IMG/VR virus record: IMGVR_UViG_2693429599_000012
Coordinates: 1-36,043 of that record
DNA: 36,043 bases
Source: a virus
Lineage: Duplodnaviria; Heunggongvirae; Uroviricota; Caudoviricetes
Direction: 5' to 3' (one strand)
In this document: positions 3,292 through 23,628 of the stretch, in pieces
Layout: each line of letters starts with the position of its first letter
How positions within the stretch are numbered: the first letter of the stretch is position 1
Notes under the pieces: generated by a model
What the model saw: only the letters and a program-made list of their open reading frames with translations
The model's database searches: none
Told to the model about the DNA's origin: nothing
Program-made: the position numbers and the translations under genes

Positions 3292-3474
3292 TCAGTAAAC
3301 CTCGGCGGTAATCTTTACTTTAATGTCATACTTCTTTAAGAGTTTATGAAAGGTTGATTTATCGATACCCTCATTTTTAAACCACTCTTCAATTCTCACA
3401 CCCGGCGTTAACTCAAAGTAGCGTTTAGCCATTTCTAAGATGATTTCGCGAGTGAACTTAACAGGTCGTGCCAT
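3292..3474 (-). CDS. Small HTH DNA-binding protein (60 aa), resolvase/Hin-type HTH-like
   Basis: Sequence MARPVKFTREIILEMAKRYF...GIDKSTFHKLLKKYDIKV; paralogous to the 6619-6852 product and to the C-terminus of the 6881-7483 product. Confidence 0.55.
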   Translation of the reverse strand: MARPVKFTREIILEMAKRYFELTPGVRIEEWFKNEGIDKSTFHKLLKKYDIKVKITAEVY

Positions 3475-15420: not shown

Positions 15421-18400
15421 ATGCAGTCGATCCAATTTAAACGAACTAATGTTTCTGGCAAAAAGCCAACGCCGGAACAATTACAGGTCGGTGAGGTGGC
15501 AATCAACCTTAAAGACCATGTTATTTTTACCAAAGACCGAGATCATGAAGTAGTTCAAATCTCTGTTTCTCCTGAAACTCACGCGGCACTAGAATCTAAA
15601 GTTGATGCTAACAAACAAGAATTGGATAGCACAATTGCAGTAAATGACCGCAATATTCACGCTAAAGTAGATGAAATTAAACAAACTACTGATTCTACTA
15701 TCGCAGCAAATCATGCAGAAATTAACAATAAAGTTGATGTAATTAAACGCGAAACCGACGCGACAATCGAAGCTAATAAAAATAAAGCTGCTTCCGATCT
15801 TGCTGGTGTTAAAGCTGAATTGTCGGATACCATCAACGCTAATAAAAATGCGGCTGCTGTAGCAACTCAGGAACTGGACACCCGCATCAATAAAAAAGTT
15901 GATGATATTAAATCCCGTACAGATGCAACCATCGCAAGCAATGACAAAGCAATCAATGACAAAGTTGATTTGATTAAGACAGAAACTGACCGCACTATCG
16001 CAGCAAATAAAGTCTATGCGGAAAATCAGTTAACTGACACCTACAATAACCTTACTGGTGTGATTGCAGCCAATAAGCAAGAGGCAGCGGATAACGTTGC
16101 GGCATTAACCCGTGATGTTGAAGCCAAAAATACAGCAATTCATAGCAAAGTTGACAATAACAAGTCTTACACTGATTCTGAACTGGCACGTTTAGAAAGC
16201 CGTATTGATGCAGCCGATGGATCTGCTGATGGCAAGTACATCAAAAAACACGTAAACACTTATACTGATGGTTATTTGCTGTCTAAGACCGCAAACTATT
16301 TTGATGATCCAAATGCGCGTAATCTTGATTACTTTGGTGCATTCCGCATGAATGACCTGGCGGGTCATATTGCAATGATCTTGCATGTTCCGCATCCATC
16401 TGGTGTTAATCATGCTCGTGGCTTTGAGTTCACTTATGGGTCTAATCCGGTTCATACGGTAAGAACATACGGCTATGATGAATTGGGTCATTTGGCATAT
16501 TCTCACCGCATGTATCATGAAGGTGATAAACCTACTCCTGCCGAAATTGGCGCATATTCGAAAGCAGAAATTGACCGACTGTTCCAGAAGACGCTTAATT
16601 TTGGGATCGAGGGTGGTTGGTTTAAACTAGGCACTTTGACAATGCCACAGCAACACGGTCGTAGTGCTAAGATCCGCTTAGTTGGTGGTAACGGTTATAA
16701 CGTCGGGATGAATGGACAAGCCAATATTATCGAATTGGTGATTCGATGCGGCAACAATAGCCCGAAAGGTGTTGTATTCAATGCGTATTATACTATTTGG
16801 CATTATGAACAACATTTTTGCGCTATTCCAACCGATGGCGACAATTACGATCTTTACGCTTACTACGGTGCACATACAGGATTTGTTTTAGCAGAATATC
16901 AAGTTTCTTCCGGTGGTGTTTCTTTAAACCTGTTGGATACTCCTGAATATCTGGGTGGTGAAAAACCTGTTGCAGATGAAATTTTTGATGCTCTTAACAT
17001 TTCATCGTTCAATAACTTTAGCAACCGTGGAACGTTAAATTTTGCGGGAAACCATCAAGGCCAATACGACATTGAGCATTTGAACGAACAACAAACAAAT
17101 GCTAAGAAAATGTTGCGTCGCTTCCGTAGTTCTGCTCCTGCCACTATCTGGCACGAAAGTGTTGATGACCAAAATTATCGTCTTGCTACTGGATATACCG
17201 ATGTAAACCAACAATTATTGCTTTCAGTTGCGACCGGTTTGCATATTCGTAGATTGACCATCGATGGTGGCTTAGGTTCCGGTTCTAATGCTGGTATTGA
17301 TATTCGTCGAGGACCAAACGAAGCAAGCCATTTTAATTTCATGGATTATCGCACTGGACAAGATGTTCGTAATGGCTGGTTTGGTTTTGGTGATTTGACG
17401 ACCAAAGATTTTATTTGGTGGAACGATAACGGTCAAAACTCTATAAACCTGATTGAAGATGGTGAATTACATATTACTGGTGGTAAAGGCCAGAAAATTG
17501 TAATGAATAGCGAAGTTGCATTATCTGAAAATGCTCGTTTGGCTGTCAAAGGCGGTAACTATGGTTTGATGTTACGCAATGATGGTTCTAGCTTCCATAT
17601 TCTTACTACCGATTTAAAAGATTCTTTTGGTAGTTGGAATAATCGCAGACCATTTAGTTATGATTTCGCCGAAGGTGGATTAGATCTAGGTGGTACTGAA
17701 ACTGCTCGTTGTTTGCATCTGGGGATCGATGGTAGTACCCGCATCGAAGATAACTTAGTTTTCAGAGCGGGATCACGTCAATCAATGGACTATATTGAAA
17801 TGATCCATTGGGGTAACAGTAATACAGGACGCAACAACGTTTTGAGTATGCGGGATTCCAAAGGATTCTTGGCTGAATTTGAACGTGTAGGCGGGACCAA
17901 CGGCGTTAAAACCAGATTCTTTGGTGAAACCTTCACTGACGGTACATTATACCTAAATCAGATGAATAATAGCTCTGAACGATTCTCTATCAATAATTGG
18001 GGAAATTCAGAAGTTGGTCGCGCGGCAGTGATGGAAGTCGGTGATTCCAAAGGTTATCACTTCTATACGGAACGTAGGACAGATGACACCGTTTTGTTTG
18101 ATGTATCCGGTTCTTTGACCGTGCATGGACCTAACGGAATAACCGTCAAAAACTCAACTGGTGCACGCCATATCTGGTTTAGAGATGATAGCGATACGGA
18201 AAAGGCTGTTATCTGGGCTACAGATGAGGGTATGTTACATATACGAAATAATCATGAGGGTTCATTTGCTCATCACTTCCAGGGCGCAATGATTAAACTG
18301 GAAGGGCGTGTTCCTTATGCCGCAGATCAAGGACTTATCCGTGGTGAGGTTTCTGGTGGTGCATATGTTGCATGGAGAGACCGACCTGCTGGTTTGTTGG

Positions 18401-18951
18401 TTGACTGTCAACAAAGCGTTGATAGTGCTCATGCTATTTGGAAAGCGGTTGATTGGGGTCGTCAATATATCGCAGCAATGGATGTGCATTGTCCCGGTGA
18501 TGGTAATAATACTGCGGCAGCGGTTCTTCATGTTCAGGCTGCTGATTATCAATTCCATGCAAGCGGAGAATTTCATGCCAGTGGCAACGGAAACTTTAAC
18601 GATGTGTATATTCGTTCTGACCGTCGTCTGAAAATTAACGTTGAAGACTACGAAGAAAATGCGGTAGATAAGGTAAATAAACTCAAAGTTAAAACCTACG
18701 ATAAAGTTAAATCTCTTAATGACCGAGAAGTTATAGGTCATGAGATTGGTATTATCGCACAGGATTTACAAGAGGTATTACCGGAAGCTGTTAAAACCGC
18801 AAAAATTGGTGGTCTTGATAACCCAGAAGAAATTTTAACAATTTCAAACTCCGCAGTGAACGCGCTTTTAATTAAAGCGGTCCAAGAAATGAGCGAAGAA
18901 AATAAACTTCTTCGTGAACGTCTTGCTGCAATTGAAGCTAAATTAGGGTAA
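15421..18951 (+). CDS. Side (L-shaped type) tail fiber protein with C-terminal intramolecular chaperone / peptidase S74 domain
   Basis: 1176 aa; N-terminal KRTNVSGKKPTPEQLQVGEVAINLKD; internal ~20-aa tandem repeats (KVDxIKxxTDxTIAAN, 4-5 copies); C-terminal ~120 aa YIRSDRRLKINVEDYEENAVDKVNKLKVKTYD...LLRERLAAIEAKLG is typical of S74 autoproteolytic chaperone domains. Confidence 0.8.
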   Translation: MQSIQFKRTNVSGKKPTPEQLQVGEVAINLKDHVIFTKDRDHEVVQISVSPETHAALESKVDANKQELDSTIAVNDRNIHAKVDEIKQTTDSTIAANHAEINNKVDVIKRETDATIEANKNKAASDLAGVKAELSDTINANKNAAAVATQELDTRINKKVDDIKSRTDATIASNDKAINDKVDLIKTETDRTIAANKVYAENQLTDTYNNLTGVIAANKQEAADNVAALTRDVEAKNTAIHSKVDNNKSYTDSELARLESRIDAADGSADGKYIKKHVNTYTDGYLLSKTANYFDDPNARNLDYFGAFRMNDLAGHIAMILHVPHPSGVNHARGFEFTYGSNPVHTVRTYGYDELGHLAYSHRMYHEGDKPTPAEIGAYSKAEIDRLFQKTLNFGIEGGWFKLGTLTMPQQHGRSAKIRLVGGNGYNVGMNGQANIIELVIRCGNNSPKGVVFNAYYTIWHYEQHFCAIPTDGDNYDLYAYYGAHTGFVLAEYQVSSGGVSLNLLDTPEYLGGEKPVADEIFDALNISSFNNFSNRGTLNFAGNHQGQYDIEHLNEQQTNAKKMLRRFRSSAPATIWHESVDDQNYRLATGYTDVNQQLLLSVATGLHIRRLTIDGGLGSGSNAGIDIRRGPNEASHFNFMDYRTGQDVRNGWFGFGDLTTKDFIWWNDNGQNSINLIEDGELHITGGKGQKIVMNSEVALSENARLAVKGGNYGLMLRNDGSSFHILTTDLKDSFGSWNNRRPFSYDFAEGGLDLGGTETARCLHLGIDGSTRIEDNLVFRAGSRQSMDYIEMIHWGNSNTGRNNVLSMRDSKGFLAEFERVGGTNGVKTRFFGETFTDGTLYLNQMNNSSERFSINNWGNSEVGRAAVMEVGDSKGYHFYTERRTDDTVLFDVSGSLTVHGPNGITVKNSTGARHIWFRDDSDTEKAVIWATDEGMLHIRNNHEGSFAHHFQGAMIKLEGRVPYAADQGLIRGEVSGGAYVAWRDRPAGLLVDCQQSVDSAHAIWKAVDWGRQYIAAMDVHCPGDGNNTAAAVLHVQAADYQFHASGEFHASGNGNFNDVYIRSDRRLKINVEDYEENAVDKVNKLKVKTYDKVKSLNDREVIGHEIGIIAQDLQEVLPEAVKTAKIGGLDNPEEILTISNSAVNALLIKAVQEMSEENKLLRERLAAIEAKLG

Positions 18952-18989
18952 TTGGAAAGCGGGGAGAAATCTCCGCTAAGGATTCTTAT

Positions 18990-19286
18990 ATGGGATATTG
19001 GGTAAGTAGTGAAATTAATACTAAAATCGATGCTTTAAAATGGCATGTATTTGATATTCCTAACGGCTATGGTACTGCTCGTGCTGGTGTCGCTGTAATG
19101 CGTCATAATGCTGGTGGTGGGTGGTCTGATGCACATATTAACGTAGATGGTTTGACCGTTGCTCGTCGTCGTGGTGGGACCAATTGGGGATCTACTATAA
19201 ATTCGTTTGTTCCTGCTGGCTGCACCGTCTCCTTTGGTTTAGGGGGTGAAGGTGGTGTTGAATATTTTAAATTCATGGAGTTTTAA
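18990..19286 (+). CDS. Small protein, paralog 1 of 3 (98 aa), unknown function
   Basis: AAGGA RBS; shares W..FDIPNG(Y/W) and a C-terminal TVSF.LG...YFKF motif with the next two genes. Confidence 0.6.
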   Translation: MGYWVSSEINTKIDALKWHVFDIPNGYGTARAGVAVMRHNAGGGWSDAHINVDGLTVARRRGGTNWGSTINSFVPAGCTVSFGLGGEGGVEYFKFMEF

Positions 19287-19288
19287 TT

Positions 19289-19594
19289 ATGGCTGGATGG
19301 ATAAATCAAAGAATGTCAAACGCTATTAGTATTTGGGCTAATGGTGGATATTTTGATATCCCCAACGGTTGGGTCACTGATTCATGCGGAATTGTCTTTG
19401 CTCATATGGAAGCCATTAACGGTGCTGGTGATCTTGATTCTGAATTGGCTGTAAATGGATTGATTGAATCAGGCCATCATGCTGGTGATGCTGGGAGTTG
19501 GGGTGCTAGTTCTTTAGTTGGCGCTGGTGCTACCGTTAGCTTTACATTGGGTAAAGGTAGTTTGCATTATTTCAAATTCAGGAGAATGCACTAA
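19289..19594 (+). CDS. Small protein, paralog 2 of 3 (101 aa), unknown function
   Basis: GGAG RBS; start 3 nt after the stop of paralog 1; YFDIPNGW and ATVSFTLGKGSLHYFKF. Confidence 0.6.
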   Translation: MAGWINQRMSNAISIWANGGYFDIPNGWVTDSCGIVFAHMEAINGAGDLDSELAVNGLIESGHHAGDAGSWGASSLVGAGATVSFTLGKGSLHYFKFRRMH

Positions 19595-19896
19595 TGGCAT
19601 TTTGGGTAGATGGCGCTTTGGGGAATAGGGCGGGTAAAGCAAATCAAGGATGGTTTGATATTCCTAACGGTTGGACAGCCGACGCTTTCGGGACTATTTC
19701 ATTCTGTGCTCATTCTTCCGGTGGTGGCGGCGGTGACTCTGAATTGTTTATTCATGGTTTTTGTGTTTCTGGAAGCCATAAGGGTCATGATTGGGGACAG
19801 ATCCATTCTTGTATTGCACCGCAAGGAGCAGTAATTACAGTTAGCACAAATAGGGGGATCGCTCATCTTCGTTATAGACGTTTGAGCAATCGCTAA
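19594..19896 (+). CDS. Small protein, paralog 3 of 3 (100 aa), unknown function
   Basis: AGGAGA RBS; start overlaps the stop of paralog 2 (TAATG); WFDIPNGW motif; Gly-rich SSGGGGGD. Confidence 0.6.
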   Translation: MAFWVDGALGNRAGKANQGWFDIPNGWTADAFGTISFCAHSSGGGGGDSELFIHGFCVSGSHKGHDWGQIHSCIAPQGAVITVSTNRGIAHLRYRRLSNR

Positions 19897-19950
19897 ATAA
19901 ATAGAATTACGGGTATGTACCCTATTGTTTAAAATAGAAGGAAAAGAATA

Positions 19951-20424
19951 ATGACTACTAAATTTGATATTTTTTCTGGTGGCCTCGTTGGTCTGTTTCT
20001 GCAAGAAGACGTAAGCAATAAAGACCTTGATGCTGAAACCTATCTGGAAATCCCAGAATGCGCAGCGTTCCCGGAAACTGGTGTAGAACGTTCTACTATC
20101 GATGTTCCTAACTTCTCTGGTGCTTATAACCGTAAGCTGGTTGGTCGTATGTCTGTACCTGATATCGAACTTTCGATCAACTACATTCCGGGTAACGAAG
20201 TACACGAAAAACTGATTAAAGCAACCGAAGACGGTAAGCGCGTACAGCTTAAAATTGCTTACTACATCGATGCTACGAAAAAATCTGGTGTACATATCGC
20301 TTATAACGGCTTCCTGTCTAAAACTACCATGACTGGTGGTGAGGATGCTGTAGTAGGCCGTACCTTCACCTTTGTAGTAGATGGTGCTCCGGTTAAACAA
20401 GCTGTTTTCCAGAAAGTCGTCTAA
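19951..20424 (+). CDS. Tail tube-like protein (157 aa), second candidate major tail protein
   Basis: Strong RBS; immediately upstream of the G/G-T chaperone genes; followed by a strong terminator, as expected of a highly expressed structural gene. Confidence 0.5.
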   Translation: MTTKFDIFSGGLVGLFLQEDVSNKDLDAETYLEIPECAAFPETGVERSTIDVPNFSGAYNRKLVGRMSVPDIELSINYIPGNEVHEKLIKATEDGKRVQLKIAYYIDATKKSGVHIAYNGFLSKTTMTGGEDAVVGRTFTFVVDGAPVKQAVFQKVV

Positions 20425-20431
20425 TATTATC

Positions 20432-20457
20432 TAGCCATCCTTCGGGGTGGCTTTTTT
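20432..20457 (+). terminator. Rho-independent terminator with TTCG tetraloop
   Basis: AGCCATCC-TTCG-GGGTGGCT followed by TTTTTT. Confidence 0.65.
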
Positions 20458-20506
20458 GTTTCCAATTCTAAATAAACATATCTAATTAACTTAAGAGGAA
20501 ACAAGA

Positions 20507-20815
20507 ATGAACATTAGCGAAATGTTAGCCGCACTCTCTCCGAAACGCGAATCTCTGACCATCGGTGGATTCACTTTCTATGCTCGCCCTATGTCAGTAA
20601 AAGAATTTAACGAACATGTTTTCAATACTGATAAAGAAGACCGTGATGAACGTTCTATTCTTCGTTGTATTGAAGATGAAGACGGTAAACCAGTATTTGA
20701 ATCTATGGAACAAGTTAAGGCACTGTATACTAACGTTCGAAGTGAATTAATCGGTTTGGTTGCTCAAGCGTCATTGATGCAAGATCCGGCGGTAATTGAA
20801 AACGAGGTAAAGTAA
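20507..20815 (+). CDS. Tail assembly chaperone (gpG-like)
   Basis: 102-aa ORF directly upstream of the tape measure gene, with a downstream ORF in the -1 frame (canonical G/G-T arrangement). Confidence 0.6.
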   Translation: MNISEMLAALSPKRESLTIGGFTFYARPMSVKEFNEHVFNTDKEDRDERSILRCIEDEDGKPVFESMEQVKALYTNVRSELIGLVAQASLMQDPAVIENEVK

Positions 20816-21195
20816 ACCCGCTTCTGAATTTCTATTTCCGGCAAATGATGAGATCGGGGCTTAGTAAAGATGAAATGGATAATATGCCAATCACTCTGTT
20901 TTGGAAATTATACATTTTCGACACCTACTTAGAACCACAAAGCCCCGCGTTTCATGATATGCAGAATGCGATGTTGCAATATTCCATGTATATGACGTCG
21001 CAAGGAATGACACGCGAAACTGCAAAGAAACTCAAGCCTAGCCAATTCCAATTAATTAGAGAAGAAAAACTCTTTAAAACTAAAGAAGAACTGGAAGAAC
21101 TTGCACGCAAGAAAGAAGAAGAGCGTAAAGCTGCAACATTGAGCATGTTCGATCCATCTTTGCTTGAGAAACTCAGAAGCGCACAAACGGGGTAA
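20800..21195 (+). CDS. Tail assembly chaperone T segment, probably expressed as a G-T fusion by -1 frameshift
   Basis: The -1 frame opens at 20800, overlaps the last 16 nt of the G ORF and runs to 21195. The first ATG at 20845 has no good RBS. No canonical slippery heptamer seen. Confidence 0.45.
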   Translation, partial: KRGKVNPLLNFYFRQMMRSGLSKDEMDNMPITLFWKLYIFDTYLEPQSPAFHDMQNAMLQYSMYMTSQGMTRETAKKLKPSQFQLIREEKLFKTKEELEELARKKEEERKAATLSMFDPSLLEKLRSAQTG

Positions 21196-21198
21196 TTT

Positions 21199-23628
21199 AT
21201 GACAAGACATATAGTAACAATAGAAGGGGATAATAAAGGTCTAAGGAGAAGTACCCATGAAGCCGCCGACCTTCTCGATAGTTTGTCTGAAAAGGCAAGT
21301 AATATTGATTTTGGTGGTGGCTTATCTGGTCTGACTGGATCTCTTCGTGGTATTGCTGGCTCTGCTGGTTTGGCTGCTGGTGGTATTGGCTTAGTTGCGA
21401 CCGCAGTGGTTGCAGCCGCTAAAGCTGGTGCGGAATACGTTAAACAGTATTCAGAAGTATCTAAGGCGACCGGACTCTCGATTGAATCCCTTCAAAGACT
21501 GGAAAAGGAATTTTCTGGCACTGGCTTAACAGTTGAAAAATTTGGCGATATCAACAAAGACACCTTAGATAAAATGGGTGATGCGTGGGCTAATGGTGGT
21601 GGTATTGCTGATGACTTAGAATCGGTTGGTCTTAAGTTAGAAAACTATGCTCACTTCATGACCGATCCGCAAGGTGGTATGAAAGCGGCGATCCAAGTGT
21701 TCTATGACATGAAGAAAGCCGGAAAATCAATGGCTGAAATCAAGTTCATGATGGAATCTTTAGCCAGTGATTCAAGCCATATGACCAGCCAGCTTGAGAA
21801 ATATAATAGTGCTCAAGAGGCGATGATCGCTATTCAGAATCAATCTGTTAACGTCACCGAAGAAAACGCTAAAAAATATGATAAATTTTCTCAGAATATT
21901 AATAAGCTGGAAAATAACCTGAAAGGTGTCGGTATGACCATTTCTGGTCCGCTGGTTGATAGTTTAAACTGGTTATTTGACTGGTTTAATATTGATTGGG
22001 AAAAGAGTTCTCTATTCAGGGCATTAGACCGACTGAATAAAGAAGGTGCGACCGCTACGGGTGGTATTCTTAACGCCAACCATAAAGACGCTCAAAAGAT
22101 TATTGACAAGTACAATAAAGAAAAGCGTTGGAATAATCTAGCAGATTGGGAAAAGGCCGCGATCCGTGGTGCTGGTGTCGATCCTCGTACTGCTGGCTTT
22201 GATGTAGAAGCATATAAGAAACGTTTTGGTAATTCTTATAAGAAAAATGGCTCTCTGATTGTAGTCGATAACGGGGAACATCTAACCCGCAAGGCAGATC
22301 CTAACACTGATTTGACTATCCCTACTACACCAACTCGACCAGAATCATTGGGTCCATCTGCCAAAGAGAAGAAAGAAGAGGAAGAAGCCAAGAAGAAAGC
22401 GGAAGAGAAAGCTAAAAAGGCTAAGGAAGCCGCAGAAAAAGCACAGAAAGAACGTGAGGATGCAATCAAGCGTCTGAATGCACTTGATGTTAAATTGCAA
22501 GGACAGGTCGCCGCGTCTATTGCTTCTCAAAACAAGCAATTAGAAACCAGCTTAAAAGATCTGGATAATGCTGTTAAGTTGGGGCTTATTTCTCAGCAAG
22601 ACGCAGCCGCGAAACGCCAATCATTAATCGATCAGAATACTGAAAACGTATACAAAATGGTTTTAGGTGCTGATCCGGTTGATGCTCTGAATGCTTTAAC
22701 ACAATTGCAACAAATCAGGGACAACGAGTTAGAAAGCCATAAACGGTTACTTGATGGTAAAGCTATCTCCTACGAAGAATATATGCGTCGTGTGAACGAT
22801 ACCGAGCAAAACTATTCTCAGATTGAAAATTCTTTACAGGGAATGGATGGTTTTAAAACCAATCAGTTGACCAATGGTTTAGATTATCAGGACTCGAATA
22901 ACCCGTTTGCTAAATTTAATGCAATCGATAAAGAGAAATCGGACGCTGAACAAGATTATAAAACCGATAAACTCAAGATTGATGGGATCACCGATCCGGC
23001 TAAACGGATGGAAGCATTAGAAAAACTCAATGAAAACCATCAAAAACGAATGGCTGCAATTGAGAAGAAATATGCTGATGCTCGACAGTCAATAGCCGAT
23101 GATATGTATGGCGGTTTTGCTGCTGCAATGACTCTCTTCGGGCAGGAAAACACTAAAGCTATGCAGATGGCTTTCACTGCTCATAAAGCATTCTCCATTG
23201 GACAAGCGACGGTGAACATGTGGACGGCTGCTACCGATGCATGGAACGATCCGACCAACGTAACCACAGGTCAAAAAATCGCTGCTGCTGCATTGGCTGT
23301 TTCTCAGAACATGGGGAACATCGCAAACATCAAGTCTACTAACGTTAGCGGTATGGCTCACGATGGTATTGATAACATCCCTCGTGAGGGTACATGGTTG
23401 CTTGATAAGGGTGAACGAGTAGTTGATCAGCGTACTAACGGTGATTTGAAAGACTTCTTATCTGCTCAAAAATCAGGCGGTGGTAACTCTCAGCCGATTG
23501 AAGTTAACGCACCTTTGAACATTAACGGCAACGTTAATAGCTCAGACAAGATGGTCATGGATGCTATCAAACGTCACGCTAAGTTAGTTGCTCAGGCGGT
23601 AGAAGACGCACAGCGCCGTAAGATGTAA
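21199..23628 (+). CDS. Tail tape measure protein
   Basis: 809 aa; N-terminal Gly/Ala-rich hydrophobic segment; long coiled-coil and charged repeats (KKEEEEAKKKAEEKAKKAKEAAEKAQKE); position between the chaperones and the minor tail genes. Confidence 0.8.
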   Translation: MTRHIVTIEGDNKGLRRSTHEAADLLDSLSEKASNIDFGGGLSGLTGSLRGIAGSAGLAAGGIGLVATAVVAAAKAGAEYVKQYSEVSKATGLSIESLQRLEKEFSGTGLTVEKFGDINKDTLDKMGDAWANGGGIADDLESVGLKLENYAHFMTDPQGGMKAAIQVFYDMKKAGKSMAEIKFMMESLASDSSHMTSQLEKYNSAQEAMIAIQNQSVNVTEENAKKYDKFSQNINKLENNLKGVGMTISGPLVDSLNWLFDWFNIDWEKSSLFRALDRLNKEGATATGGILNANHKDAQKIIDKYNKEKRWNNLADWEKAAIRGAGVDPRTAGFDVEAYKKRFGNSYKKNGSLIVVDNGEHLTRKADPNTDLTIPTTPTRPESLGPSAKEKKEEEEAKKKAEEKAKKAKEAAEKAQKEREDAIKRLNALDVKLQGQVAASIASQNKQLETSLKDLDNAVKLGLISQQDAAAKRQSLIDQNTENVYKMVLGADPVDALNALTQLQQIRDNELESHKRLLDGKAISYEEYMRRVNDTEQNYSQIENSLQGMDGFKTNQLTNGLDYQDSNNPFAKFNAIDKEKSDAEQDYKTDKLKIDGITDPAKRMEALEKLNENHQKRMAAIEKKYADARQSIADDMYGGFAAAMTLFGQENTKAMQMAFTAHKAFSIGQATVNMWTAATDAWNDPTNVTTGQKIAAAALAVSQNMGNIANIKSTNVSGMAHDGIDNIPREGTWLLDKGERVVDQRTNGDLKDFLSAQKSGGGNSQPIEVNAPLNINGNVNSSDKMVMDAIKRHAKLVAQAVEDAQRRKM

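What the first reader, a model, noticed from the sequence alone, without database searches (positions are those of the whole stretch)
20795..20850. G/G-T tail chaperone frameshift window without a canonical slippery heptamer
The T frame is -1 relative to G and is open from 20800, overlapping only the last 16 nt of G (…GAA AAC GAG GTA AAG TAA). I cannot find an X XXY YYZ motif; the candidates are A AAA C (20799-20803) and G GTA AAG (20806-20812). Either the shift uses a non-canonical site, or T is made independently from the ATG at 20845, which lacks a convincing RBS.
Basis: seen in the sequence. Interest (0 to 1): 0.45.

Follow-up and report, generated by a model that had tools for sequence, protein, structure and literature searches.

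The report
Tail-chaperone frameshift at a GUA-AAG site
An E. coli prophage most likely makes its long tail-assembly chaperone (G-T fusion) by a backward ribosome slip on the short sequence GUA-AAG just before the G stop codon; this is an unannotated but ordinary variant of the phage lambda G/GT frameshift, not a new mechanism.

Summary
G (20507-20815) is followed by a T reading frame in the -1 phase. That frame opens only at 20800, has no start codon before ATG 20845, and contains no X_XXY_YYZ heptamer in the 16-nt overlap.

Twelve diverged lineages from enterobacterial prophages, metagenome contigs and phage DCP80 (41 distinct junction sequences) settle the ambiguity:
- T is -1 to G in all 12 lineages; a 13th, very distant lineage (L109-111) is the exception, with G and T in one frame.
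- The G-frame hexamer NUA_AAG sits at the junction in all 12. Two lineages carry the canonical U_UUA_AAG at the same aligned position as the window's G_GUA_AAG (20806-20812).
- The 11 T-frame codons between AAG and the ATG are under purifying selection (pN/pS 0.45, against about 1.0 and 0.8 in the other frames) and include an invariant Phe.
- Two lineages have no ATG at the homologous position.
- ATG 20845 has no Shine-Dalgarno sequence (-1.1 kcal/mol, against -5.7 to -9.9 for neighbouring genes).

No conserved downstream RNA structure exists. The best reading is a low-efficiency -1 slip of tRNA-Lys on A_AAG (the known NNA_AAG "hexanucleotide" class), possibly helped by the adjacent UAA. The predicted product is a 229-aa GT. 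This is a new member of a known kind, of modest interest.

The parts
19951..20424 (+). Major tail (tube) protein gene, 157 aa; marks the upstream boundary of the chaperone cassette
   Evidence: ORF. PHROG 158 'major tail protein' E=5.8e-20. Weak Pfam lambda-like TTP hits. PGAP names the E. coli homologue 'phage tail tube protein'.
20433..20462 (+). Terminator-like hairpin (8-bp stem, 4-nt loop) plus T-run between the tube gene and G; would lower G/GT/tape-measure transcription relative to the tube protein
   Evidence: Consensus scan. 39 nt are about 95% identical to an annotated terminator in T4-like phages. Function is inferred.
20507..20815 (+). G: tail assembly chaperone ORF, 102 aa, with a good SD (AAGAGGAAA); ends ...GAG GTA AAG TAA
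   Evidence: PHROG 344 'tail assembly chaperone' E=3e-7. Pfam PF16459 Phage_TAC_13 E=1.9e-4, below the curated cut-off; 10 of 13 family members hit it, best 3.5e-6. SD duplex -6.0 kcal/mol.
20797..20799 (+). TGA stop in the T (-1) frame; any productive shift must occur at or after 20800
   Evidence: Read directly from the sequence and computed. A -1-frame stop within about 3-27 codons upstream of AAG is present in all 12 lineages.
20806..20812 (+). Proposed shift site G_GUA_AAG. The essential part is A_AAG (20809-20812), where tRNA-Lys re-pairs from AAG (20810-12) to AAA (20809-11). GUA (20807-09) is the 5' NNA codon.
   Evidence: TAAAG is invariant in the 12-lineage alignment while its flanks vary. 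The site aligns with canonical U_UUA_AAG in DCP80 (L001 3998-4004) and L069. Counts over 41 junctions are. The coding signature switches frame exactly here.
20813..20815 (+). G stop codon UAA, immediately 3' of the shift codon (possible 'shifty stop' enhancer)
   Evidence: The stop is adjacent to AAG in 7 of 12 lineages and kept as TGA (L120) or TAG (L010) in variants. It is replaced by AAA, GAA, CAA, CCG or CUA in five lineages.
20812..20844 (+). 'Bridge': 11 T-frame codons (VNPLLNFYFRQ) with no start codon, between the slip site and the first ATG; translated only if ribosomes enter from G
   Evidence: pN/pS is 0.45 in the T frame with 0 stops. It is 1.00 in the G frame (13 stops) and 0.82 in the third frame (5 stops). 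All differences between the window group and the L057 group here are synonymous in T. Phe at 20830-32 is invariant in 14 of 14 sequences.
20845..20850 (+). ATG ATG in the T frame: the only candidate independent start; internal Met-Met of GT in the favoured model
   Evidence: No SD: -1.1/-1.7 kcal/mol. Replaced by ATT CTT in DCP80 and TTC TTA in L069. Gene callers disagree on the T start: annotated lengths are 73-129 aa, and PGAP starts at window-equivalent 20884.
20812..21195 (+). T segment of GT (127 aa plus stop). Predicted GT = join(20507..20812, 20812..21195), 229 aa, junction ...AVIENEVK|VNPLLNFYFRQMMR...
   Evidence: Translation. Pfam PF06223 Phage_tail_T E=5.7e-4 for the window. Homologues L031, P0015 and P0036 score 28.7, 29.0 and 27.8 bits against a cut-off of 25.9.
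21199..23628 (+). Tape measure protein gene, 809 aa; downstream boundary of the cassette
   Evidence: PHROG 13674 'tail length tape measure protein' E=2.4e-69.

Best explanation
This is the tail-assembly-chaperone G/GT recoding cassette of a lambda-like (siphovirus-type) E. coli prophage.

Most ribosomes translate G (20507-20812) and terminate at UAA 20813, giving the 102-aa chaperone. A small fraction slip back one nucleotide at GUA_AAG. The single E. coli tRNA-Lys (anticodon mnm5s2UUU) reading AAG (20810-12) re-pairs with AAA (20809-11). Decoding then continues with GUA (20812-14) in the T frame to 21192, giving a 229-aa GT fusion (...ENEVK-VNPLLNFYFRQMMR...).

The site belongs to the known A_AAG tetramer / NNA_AAG 'hexanucleotide' class. 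Re-pairing of the P-site tRNA (Val on GUA to GGU, 2 of 3 positions) is dispensable. There is no conserved stimulatory RNA structure or internal SD, so efficiency is probably low (per cent range or below), as needed for a high G:GT ratio.

The stop codon directly after AAG may add a second chance to slip, while peptidyl-tRNA-Lys waits in the P site for release factor.

Shown by computation: frame layout, motif conservation, frame-specific selection, absence of an RBS, and homology to TAC and lambda T families. Inferred: that GT is made, the exact tRNA event, its efficiency, and the chaperone function.
For: 1. Layout. Tube gene, G, -1 T frame, tape measure gene.

2. Frame relation. T is -1 to G in all 12 diverged lineages examined: E. 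coli, Salmonella-type, Providencia, Edwardsiella, Serratia, metagenomes and phage DCP80. G identity goes down to 29% and T identity down to about 36%.

3. Motif. NUA_AAG in the G frame is present at the junction in all 12. TAAAG is invariant in the DNA alignment while neighbours vary. The 41 distinct junctions are: 30 G_GTA_AAG_TAA, 1 G_GTA_AAG_TGA, 1 G_GTA_AAG_AAA, 2 A_GTA_AAG_TAA, 2 A_GTA_AAG_GAA, 1 A_GTA_AAG_CAA, 2 G_CTA_AAG_TAA and 2 canonical T_TTA_AAG.

4. Positional homology. tblastn and MAFFT place the window's G_GTA_AAG opposite the canonical U_UUA_AAG of DCP80 and L069.

5. Selection switches frame at AAG.
- Upstream of AAG: G frame pN/pS 0.59 with no stops; T frame 1.42 with 12 stops.
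- Bridge after AAG: T frame 0.45 with no stops; G frame 1.00 with 13 stops.
- T body: 0.36.

6. Conserved residues K1, F8, R15, G17 and L18 of T lie at or before the Met-Met. F8 is invariant.

7. ATG 20845/20848 has no SD. The ATG is absent in DCP80 and L069. There is no other start codon in 20800-20844.

8. Natural variants keep the design.
- L010: a 3-nt GTA duplication gives AAG TAG, with frames preserved.
- L120: TAA to TGA keeps both the G stop and the T-frame Val.
- L114 and L117: AAC to AGC abolishes A_AAA_C but keeps GTA_AAG.

9. Literature.
- A_AAG is the most shift-prone tetramer in E. coli (PMC4066793).
- NNA_AAG -1 shifting occurs at A_CGA_AAG (B. subtilis cdd) and G_CGA_AAG (IS1222). 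Its efficiency depends on the wobble flexibility of the tRNA reading the NNA codon (PMC5009743).
- G_GU is a known partial P-site re-pairing in T7 gene 10.
- Lambda uses G_GGA_AAG, one base different from the window site, with about 4% shift. That shift is tuned by tRNA-Lys U34 thiolation (PMC3296357).
Against: - There is no protein-level evidence.
- In reporter assays the bare A_AAG tetramer was barely above background (0.147% against 0.112%). It reached 5.6% only with the IS3 pseudoknot (PMC4066793).
- I found no conserved downstream structure. The window's 88 nt downstream fold no better than shuffles (z=+0.79). RNAalifold over 12 lineages gives 0 pairs. Per-lineage z-scores are mostly within +/-1.
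- There is no conserved internal SD. GAGG at 20804-07 is replaced by TCGG, GAAG, CAGC or AGTT elsewhere. Efficiency could therefore be very low unless the adjacent stop or an unseen element helps.
- The adjacent stop is not universal: it is missing in 5 of 12 lineages.
- A very distant lineage (L109-111) has G and T in the same frame separated by one UAA. A frameshift is therefore not the only arrangement in the wider family, and T might there be made alone.
- Window G and T score below the Pfam curated cut-offs.
Confidence: 0.85

Rival explanations
1. T is a separate protein initiated at ATG 20845 (or 20848, 20875, 20884). No fusion is made and the short overlap is incidental.
For: - ATG-ATG (or one ATG) is present at this position in 10 of 12 lineages.
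- Gene callers and PGAP annotate a stand-alone T.
- In the distant L109-111 lineage G and T are in one frame split by UAA, and T may start at a TTG.
Against: - The anti-SD duplex is -1.1/-1.7 kcal/mol, below the median of random positions. All neighbouring genes have -5.7 or better.
- The 11 codons upstream of the ATG are conserved as protein (pN/pS 0.45, 0 stops, invariant Phe), which independent initiation cannot explain.
- DCP80 and L069 have Ile-Leu and Phe-Leu instead of Met-Met.
- Annotated starts differ widely between databases: 73-129 aa.
- The -1 relation and A_AAG are conserved down to about 30% identity.
Confidence: 0.07
2. The product is the same GT, but the slip is a P-site event at a 'shifty stop'. 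Peptidyl-tRNA-Lys on AAG slips to AAA while the A site holds UAA and waits for release factor. It is not a slip during or just after decoding of AAG in the A site.
For: - The stop is directly adjacent to AAG in 7 of 12 lineages. It is retained through TAA to TGA (L120) and through the GTA duplication that gives TAG (L010).
- No RNA stimulator was found, so a slow A-site event would supply the pause.
- The shifty-stop principle is established (Weiss et al. 1987, cited in PMC5009743).
Against: - Five lineages have ordinary sense codons after AAG (AAA, GAA, CAA, CCG, CUA), three of them with non-canonical sites. The stop therefore cannot be required.
- N=U in AAG_NAA_AC is also what the T frame (K-V-N) needs, so conservation of the stop is confounded.
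Confidence: 0.25
3. The shift occurs at the reader's other candidate, A_AAA_C (20799-20803): tRNA-Asn slips from AAC to AAA, giving ...VIE-N-RGKVNPLL...
For: - It lies inside the open part of the T frame.
- A_AAC is a usable A-site motif in eukaryotic systems (PMC5009743).
Against: - It is not conserved. The homologous codons are CAA, AAA, GAA or GAG-CAA in other lineages.
- Close relatives L114 and L117 have AGC instead of AAC.
- A_AAC is not among the six effective tetramers in E. coli (PMC4066793).
- T-frame residues K-R-G encoded between the two sites are not conserved (T-R-S, G-R-R-I-G, and so on).
- The selection switch maps to AAG.
Confidence: 0.03
4. Artefact or decay: a sequencing indel split one G-T gene, or T is a pseudogene remnant; alternatively RNA-polymerase slippage supplies the frame change.
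For: None specific.
Against: - The same -1 layout appears in 41 distinct junctions from isolate genomes, metagenomes and complete E. coli chromosomes.
- The T frame is under purifying selection.
- The longest A-runs near the site are A3 and A4, too short for transcriptional slippage.
Confidence: 0.01

Closest known systems
Phage lambda G/GT programmed -1 frameshift (Levin, Hendrix and Casjens 1993; Xu, Hendrix and Duda 2004, 2013, 2014, as summarised in PMC5009743 and PMC3296357)
   Same: - Two ORFs lie between the major tail gene and the tape measure gene.
- T is in the -1 frame, lacks its own start signals and is reached near the 3' end of G.
- The A-site codon is AAG, read by tRNA-Lys.
- No RNA stimulator is evident.
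- T is homologous to Pfam Phage_tail_T, the lambda gpT family: family members pass the curated cut-off.
   Different: - Lambda has the canonical heptamer G_GGA_AAG. Here the third base is U (G_GUA_AAG), so the P-site tRNA cannot fully re-pair.
- In sister lineages even the first base varies (A_GUA, G_CUA).
- The G stop is immediately adjacent to the shift codon.
- G belongs to a different TAC family (Phage_TAC_13 / PHROG 344).
NNA_AAG 'hexanucleotide' / A_AAG tetramer -1 frameshift sites (Licznar et al. 2003 in the IS3 system; B. subtilis cdd A_CGA_AAG; IS1222 G_CGA_AAG; Sharma et al. 2014)
   Same: - A single tRNA-Lys slips from AAG to AAA.
- The 5' codon ends in A and need not re-pair.
- The family uses GUA, CUA and UUA as the NNA codon.
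- From general knowledge, not tested here: GUA and CUA are read in E. coli by cmo5U34 tRNAs with extended wobble. That is the class the review says favours shifting.
   Different: - The characterised cases rely on a stimulator (the IS3 pseudoknot, or an SD 14 nt upstream in cdd). None is conserved here.
- Use of this motif class for a phage tail chaperone was not found in the literature I could search. Xu et al. 2004 could not be read.
Phage T7 gene 10A/10B frameshift at G_GUU_UUC
   Same: The P-site codon is GUN preceded by G, so tRNA-Val re-pairs imperfectly to GGU (G_GU listed as an intermediate case in PMC5009743). The shift occurs close to the end of the upstream ORF.
   Different: The A-site is UUC (Phe), not AAG. 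The gene is a capsid protein, not a chaperone. T7 uses distant 3' sequence as a stimulator (from memory, not checked).
'Shifty stop' frameshifting (Weiss et al. 1987; prfB, antizyme)
   Same: The stop codon is immediately 3' of the slippery codon in the window and in most E. coli-type relatives.
   Different: The classic examples are +1 shifts. Here the shift is -1 and the stop is dispensable in five related lineages.

Membership tests
Tail assembly chaperone G/GT frameshift cassette (lambda type) | Two consecutive ORFs located between the major tail protein gene and the tape measure gene | tested here: met
   Tube gene 19951-20424 (PHROG 158, 5.8e-20), G 20507-20815, T frame 20800-21195, tape measure 21199-23628 (PHROG 13674, 2.4e-69).. 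The same order is seen in all related loci.
Tail assembly chaperone G/GT frameshift cassette (lambda type) | The second ORF overlaps the 3' end of the first in another frame (-1 here) and lacks its own translation start signals | tested here: met
   -1 phase with a 16-nt overlap. No start codon in 20800-20844. SD duplex -1.1/-1.7 kcal/mol at the first ATGs.
Tail assembly chaperone G/GT frameshift cassette (lambda type) | The frame relation and a slippery site are conserved among relatives despite sequence divergence | tested here: met
   12 of 12 lineages are -1 with NUA_AAG at the junction. Exception: the very distant L109-111 lineage, with an in-frame UAA.
Tail assembly chaperone G/GT frameshift cassette (lambda type) | Sequence homology of G to a TAC family and of T to lambda gpT | tested here: inconclusive
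   Window G: PF16459 at 22.2 bits against a cut-off of 28.8; PHROG 344 at 3e-7. Window T: PF06223 at 20.7 bits against 25.9. Homologues L031, P0015 and P0036 pass PF06223 (27.8-29.0 bits). 10 of 13 G homologues hit PF16459. Met at family level but sub-threshold for the window proteins themselves.
Tail assembly chaperone G/GT frameshift cassette (lambda type) | Both G and GT are produced in a high G:GT ratio, are required for tail assembly and are absent from virions | not testable with these tools
   Needs protein detection and genetics.
Canonical X_XXY_YYZ heptamer -1 site | Both P-site and A-site tRNAs can re-pair in the -1 frame (XXX and YYY triplets) | tested here: not met
   No such heptamer lies in 20800-20815. 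G_GUA fails XXX. It is met only in DCP80 and L069 (U_UUA_AAG).
A_AAG tetramer / NNA_AAG hexanucleotide -1 site | A zero-frame AAG codon preceded by A, so that tRNA-Lys can re-pair cognately to AAA | tested here: met
   GUA_AAG at 20807-20812 in the G frame. Invariant across lineages.
A_AAG tetramer / NNA_AAG hexanucleotide -1 site | The host decodes AAA and AAG with one tRNA-Lys (mnm5s2U34) | not tested
   The host is inferred to be E. coli or another enterobacterium: 95-98% nucleotide matches to E. coli chromosomes. E. coli has a single tRNA-Lys according to PMC5009743. No tRNA analysis was done here.
A_AAG tetramer / NNA_AAG hexanucleotide -1 site | A flanking stimulator (downstream hairpin or pseudoknot, or an upstream SD at about 10-14 nt) raises efficiency above background | tested here: not met
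   No significant or conserved downstream fold. The long-range 8-bp pairing 20855-62 / 20940-47 is not conserved. No conserved SD-like element upstream.
Shifty-stop stimulated slippage | The stop codon is immediately 3' of the slippery codon and is required for shifting | tested here: inconclusive
   The stop is adjacent in the window and in 7 of 12 lineages, and preserved as TGA or TAG in variants. It is absent in 5 lineages. Whether it is required is not testable here.

The most novel reading that the evidence does not exclude
The family is a natural series in which a canonical heptamer (U_UUA_AAG, no adjacent stop) has been exchanged at the same codon for stimulator-free hexamers (G/A_GUA_AAG, G_CUA_AAG). 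Most of these abut the G stop codon. In this reading, competition with release factor at a -1 'shifty stop', together with extended-wobble cmo5U tRNAs on GUA and CUA, replaces P-site re-pairing and RNA structure as the device that sets the G:GT ratio. That would be a distinct, unreported design for tail-chaperone recoding.
Probability: 0.2. Interest if true: 0.45.

Novelty: new member of a known kind. Interest (0 to 1): 0.3.

Why it matters
**Annotation.**
- This prophage family is present in about 1% of complete E. coli genomes, and also in Salmonella, Serratia, Edwardsiella, Providencia, Proteus and Pantoea.
- Public records carry no GT annotation for it. G is even labelled 'cytochrome', and T is given arbitrary starts.
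- Tools that look only for XXXYYYZ will miss the site.

**Mechanism.**
- The family offers a clean evolutionary comparison of a canonical heptamer with NNA_AAG hexamers at one homologous codon, with and without an adjacent stop, and without an obvious RNA stimulator.
- That makes it a convenient natural test set for two questions: how much P-site re-pairing and stop-codon context contribute to -1 frameshifting in E. coli, and how a low G:GT ratio is set.

It does not change the known picture of tail-chaperone recoding.

Tried and rejected
1. **Downstream RNA stimulator.**
- Folding 20813-20900 gives z=+0.79 against shuffles.
- RNAalifold on 12 lineages gives 0 pairs.
- Per-lineage folds of the 60 nt after AAG have z between -2.4 and +1.1, with no common hairpin.
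- An 8-bp long-range pairing (20855-62 with 20940-47) starts 40 nt downstream. It is not complementary in most lineages.

2. **Upstream SD stimulator.** GAGGU at 20804-08 is only 1-2 nt from the site and is not conserved.

3. **Non-AUG start in the bridge.** CTG 20824 corresponds to TTG, TTA or AAA/AAG in relatives. It does not explain the conserved K-V/A-N/D-P/W upstream of it.

4. **A_AAA_C as the slip site.** Rejected.

5. **Close cultured-phage relatives.** megablast, blastn and tblastn against 50,697 phage records found only DCP80 for G and T.

6. **Scan of species-representative genomes with the T alignment.** Found nothing. The metagenome scan added only two new lineage representatives.

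7. **Literature.**
- Licznar et al. 2003 (EMBO J) could not be retrieved. Its content is cited through the Atkins 2016 review.
- Xu et al. 2004 was not available.
- Text searches for this heptamer in a phage-tail context returned nothing relevant.

8. **Structure prediction of G, T or GT.** Not run. Family-level Pfam and PHROG evidence was judged sufficient, and the fused sequence is not an admissible input.
Full report
**1. The observation**

I read 20200-21400 and listed the ORFs.
- G runs from ATG 20507 to TAA 20813-15 (102 aa). Its last codons are GAA AAC GAG GTA AAG TAA.
- The frame one nucleotide back (-1) is closed by TGA 20797-99 and then open from 20800 to TAA 21193-95, a stretch of 131 codons. 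The overlap with G is exactly 16 nt.
- Between 20800 and 20844 the T frame reads AAA CGA GGT AAA GTA AAC CCG CTT CTG AAT TTC TAT TTC CGG CAA. It contains no ATG, GTG or TTG. The first ATGs are at 20845 and 20848.
- No X_XXY_YYZ heptamer is present.
- The best anti-Shine-Dalgarno duplex upstream of 20845/20848 is -1.1/-1.7 kcal/mol, weaker than at half of all positions. Every neighbouring gene has -5.7 to -9.9.

**2. What the genes are**

- The upstream gene (19951-20424) is a lambda-like tail tube protein (PHROG 158, 5.8e-20). The downstream gene (21199-23628) is a tape measure protein (PHROG 13674, 2.4e-69).
- G matches PHROG 344 'tail assembly chaperone' (3e-7) and, below the curated cut-off, Pfam Phage_TAC_13. 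Ten of 13 family members hit that model.
- The T frame weakly matches Pfam Phage_tail_T, the lambda gpT family. Three homologues pass the curated threshold (27.8-29.0 bits against 25.9).
- The window belongs to a roughly 35-kb prophage family found in 52 of 5426 complete E. coli genomes at 90-98% identity.
- PGAP annotates G there as 'cytochrome' and T as a hypothetical protein starting at window-equivalent 20884.
- Among 50,697 phage records only Escherichia phage DCP80 carries relatives of G and T.

**3. Comparative anatomy of the junction**

I collected relatives from four sources:
- IMG/VR;
- a protein search followed by contig look-ups, covering Pantoea-type, Edwardsiella, Serratia quinivorans, S. 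marcescens, Providencia and metagenome contigs;
- a metagenome scan;
- DCP80.

Twelve lineages result, with G identity to the window down to 29% and T identity down to about 36%. In all twelve, T is -1 to G and the G-frame hexamer NUA_AAG lies at the junction.

| Lineage | Junction (G frame) |
|---|---|
| window, L057, L054, L104 | G_GUA_AAG_UAA |
| L031/L066, L073 | A_GUA_AAG_UAA |
| L067, L071 | G_CUA_AAG_UAA |
| L068/L103 | G_GUA_AAG_AAA |
| L070/L122 | A_GUA_AAG_GAA |
| L072 | A_GUA_AAG_CAA |
| DCP80 | U_UUA_AAG_CCG (canonical) |
| L069 | U_UUA_AAG_CUA (canonical) |

- Both tblastn and MAFFT align the window's G_GUA_AAG with the canonical heptamer of DCP80 and L069.
- In the DNA alignment TAAAG is invariant while the flanks vary.
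- Over 41 distinct junction sequences the motif is always present. That count used a pattern containing TAAAG, so it is descriptive. The independent evidence is the homology-based set.

**4. The bridge is translated in the T frame**

The peptide encoded between the slip site and the first ATG is conserved as protein while the DNA diverges:
- KVNPLLNFYFRQMMR in the window;
- KVNWAKRFKYAQMMR in L031;
- KANWAKRFRFQQMMR in L072;
- KADWVKRFRYRLILR in DCP80.

Phe8 is invariant in 14 of 14 sequences.

All differences between the window group and the L057 group in 20815-20844 are synonymous in the T frame (CTT/CTC, CTG/TTG, TTC/TTT twice).

Nei-Gojobori counts over the 12 lineages:

| Region | T frame | G frame | Third frame |
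|---|---|---|---|
| Bridge (after AAG) | pN/pS 0.45, 0 stops | 1.00, 13 stops | 0.82, 5 stops |
| Upstream of AAG | 1.42, 12 stops | 0.59, 0 stops | 0.79, 16 stops |
| T body | 0.36 | 0.92 | 1.86 |

The coding frame therefore changes at AAG.
- DCP80 and L069 have no Met at the position of 20845 (Ile-Leu and Phe-Leu).
- Database gene calls for T vary from 73 to 129 aa, as expected when there is no real start.

**5. Natural variants**

- L010 carries a 3-nt GTA duplication (GTA AAG TAG TAA). It preserves both frames and the adjacent stop.
- L120 has TAA changed to TGA, which keeps the G stop and the T-frame Val.
- L114 and L117 have GAA AGC instead of GAA AAC.
- In other lineages the A_AAA_C position reads CAA, AAA or GAA. 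A_AAA_C is rejected.

**6. Stimulators**

- The 88 nt after AAG fold no better than shuffles (z=+0.79).
- RNAalifold on the 12-lineage alignment predicts no pair.
- Per-lineage folds of the next 60 nt give z between -2.4 and +1.1, with no shared hairpin.
- An 8-bp long-range pairing in the E. coli group (20855-62 with 20940-47) is not conserved.
- The SD-like GAGGU at 20804-08 is too close to the site and not conserved.

I conclude that there is no conserved RNA stimulator.

**7. Mechanism**

The conserved element is A_AAG, the most shift-prone tetramer in E. coli (Sharma et al. 2014, PMC4066793). It is preceded by an NNA codon.

This is the 'hexanucleotide' NNA_AAG class summarised by Atkins et al. 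2016 (PMC5009743):
- tRNA-Lys re-pairs from AAG to AAA.
- It occurs at A_CGA_AAG (B. subtilis cdd) and G_CGA_AAG (IS1222).
- Its efficiency depends on the wobble flexibility of the tRNA reading the NNA codon.
- G_GU is listed there as a partial P-site re-pairing (T7 gene 10).

From general knowledge, not tested here: GUA and CUA are read in E. coli by cmo5U34 tRNAs with extended wobble. UUA is not, and UUA appears here only within the fully canonical U_UUA_AAG.

The window's site differs from lambda's G_GGA_AAG by one base. Lambda shifts about 4% of the time, and the level depends on tRNA-Lys U34 thiolation (Maynard et al. 2012, PMC3296357).

The predicted product is join(20507..20812, 20812..21195): 229 aa with junction ...AVIENEVK|VNPLLNFYFRQMMR.

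The bare tetramer was near background without a stimulator in reporters. Efficiency here may therefore be low, or it may be aided by the UAA immediately 3' of AAG (a 'shifty stop' P-site slip). The stop is adjacent in 7 of 12 lineages but replaced by sense codons in five. It is optional at most.

**8. Rivals**

- Independent initiation at 20845: about 0.07.
- Slip at A_AAA_C: 0.03.
- Artefact or transcriptional slippage: 0.01.
- The shifty-stop timing variant gives the same protein, so it is a sub-model of the main explanation. I give it 0.25 of being the dominant route.

**9. Caveat lineage**

L109-111 (T 38-40% identical to the window) have G and the T homologue in the same frame, separated by a single UAA after an A8 run. 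No +/-1 shift from that run reaches T. T may start at a TTG two codons before the invariant Phe, or the UAA is read through. This is unexplained. It shows that the wider family is not uniform, but it does not bear on the window's -1 arrangement.

**10. Verdict**

This is a real, conserved and currently unannotated G/GT programmed -1 frameshift that uses a non-canonical but already characterised motif class.
- Novelty: new member of a known kind.
- Interest: 0.3. It has value mainly for annotation and as a natural heptamer-versus-hexamer series for frameshift mechanics.

Noticed in passing
window 20433-20462: A strong terminator-like hairpin plus T-run lies between the tail tube gene and G. 39 nt are about 95% identical to an annotated terminator in T4-like phages vB_EcoM_G2494 and G5211. 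It probably attenuates G/GT/tape-measure expression relative to the tube protein.
   Followed up: partly
window 15421-19912: The 1176-aa tail fibre gene and three tandem paralogous ORFs of about 100 aa (18990-19286, 19289-19594, 19594-19896) are about 88% nucleotide-identical to long-tail-fibre distal regions of lytic T-even phages. This suggests recent exchange of a host-range module between a temperate sipho-type prophage and T4-like phages.
   Followed up: no
L065 3608-4296 (E. coli PE15, NZ_CP041628): RefSeq/PGAP names the G homologue 'cytochrome' (WP_096319063.1) and starts T at an internal ATG equivalent to window 20884. No frameshift is annotated.
   Followed up: yes
L109 1466-1530 (also L110, L111): In this distant lineage G and the T homologue are in the same frame, separated by one TAA directly after an A8 run (GAA AAA AAA TAA GAG...). 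Possible explanations are read-through, suppression, or TTG-initiated T. Unresolved.
   Followed up: partly
L030 about 3222 onward / L044 (IMGVR_UViG_2925919700_000005): An insertion sequence interrupts G after about codon 74. Its ends resemble IS10, judged from memory only. This prophage copy is presumably tail-defective.
   Followed up: no
L010 about 3300-3315 (IMGVR_UViG_2778260996_000020): A 3-nt GTA duplication sits exactly at the slip site (GTA AAG TAG TAA). It adds one Val to GT while keeping the stop adjacent to AAG.
   Followed up: yes
L001 (PQ671644.1, Escherichia phage DCP80): This 141-kb record is classified as Straboviridae/Gaprivervirus (T4-like), yet it carries a sipho-type tube, G, T and tape-measure module, all annotated 'hypothetical protein'. 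It may be a chimeric assembly or a misclassification.
   Followed up: no
window 20855-20862 and 20940-20947: A perfect 8-bp complementarity (CGGGGCUU / AAGCCCCG) lies inside T and dominates the 181-nt MFE fold. It is present only in the E. coli group and is not supported by covariation.
   Followed up: yes
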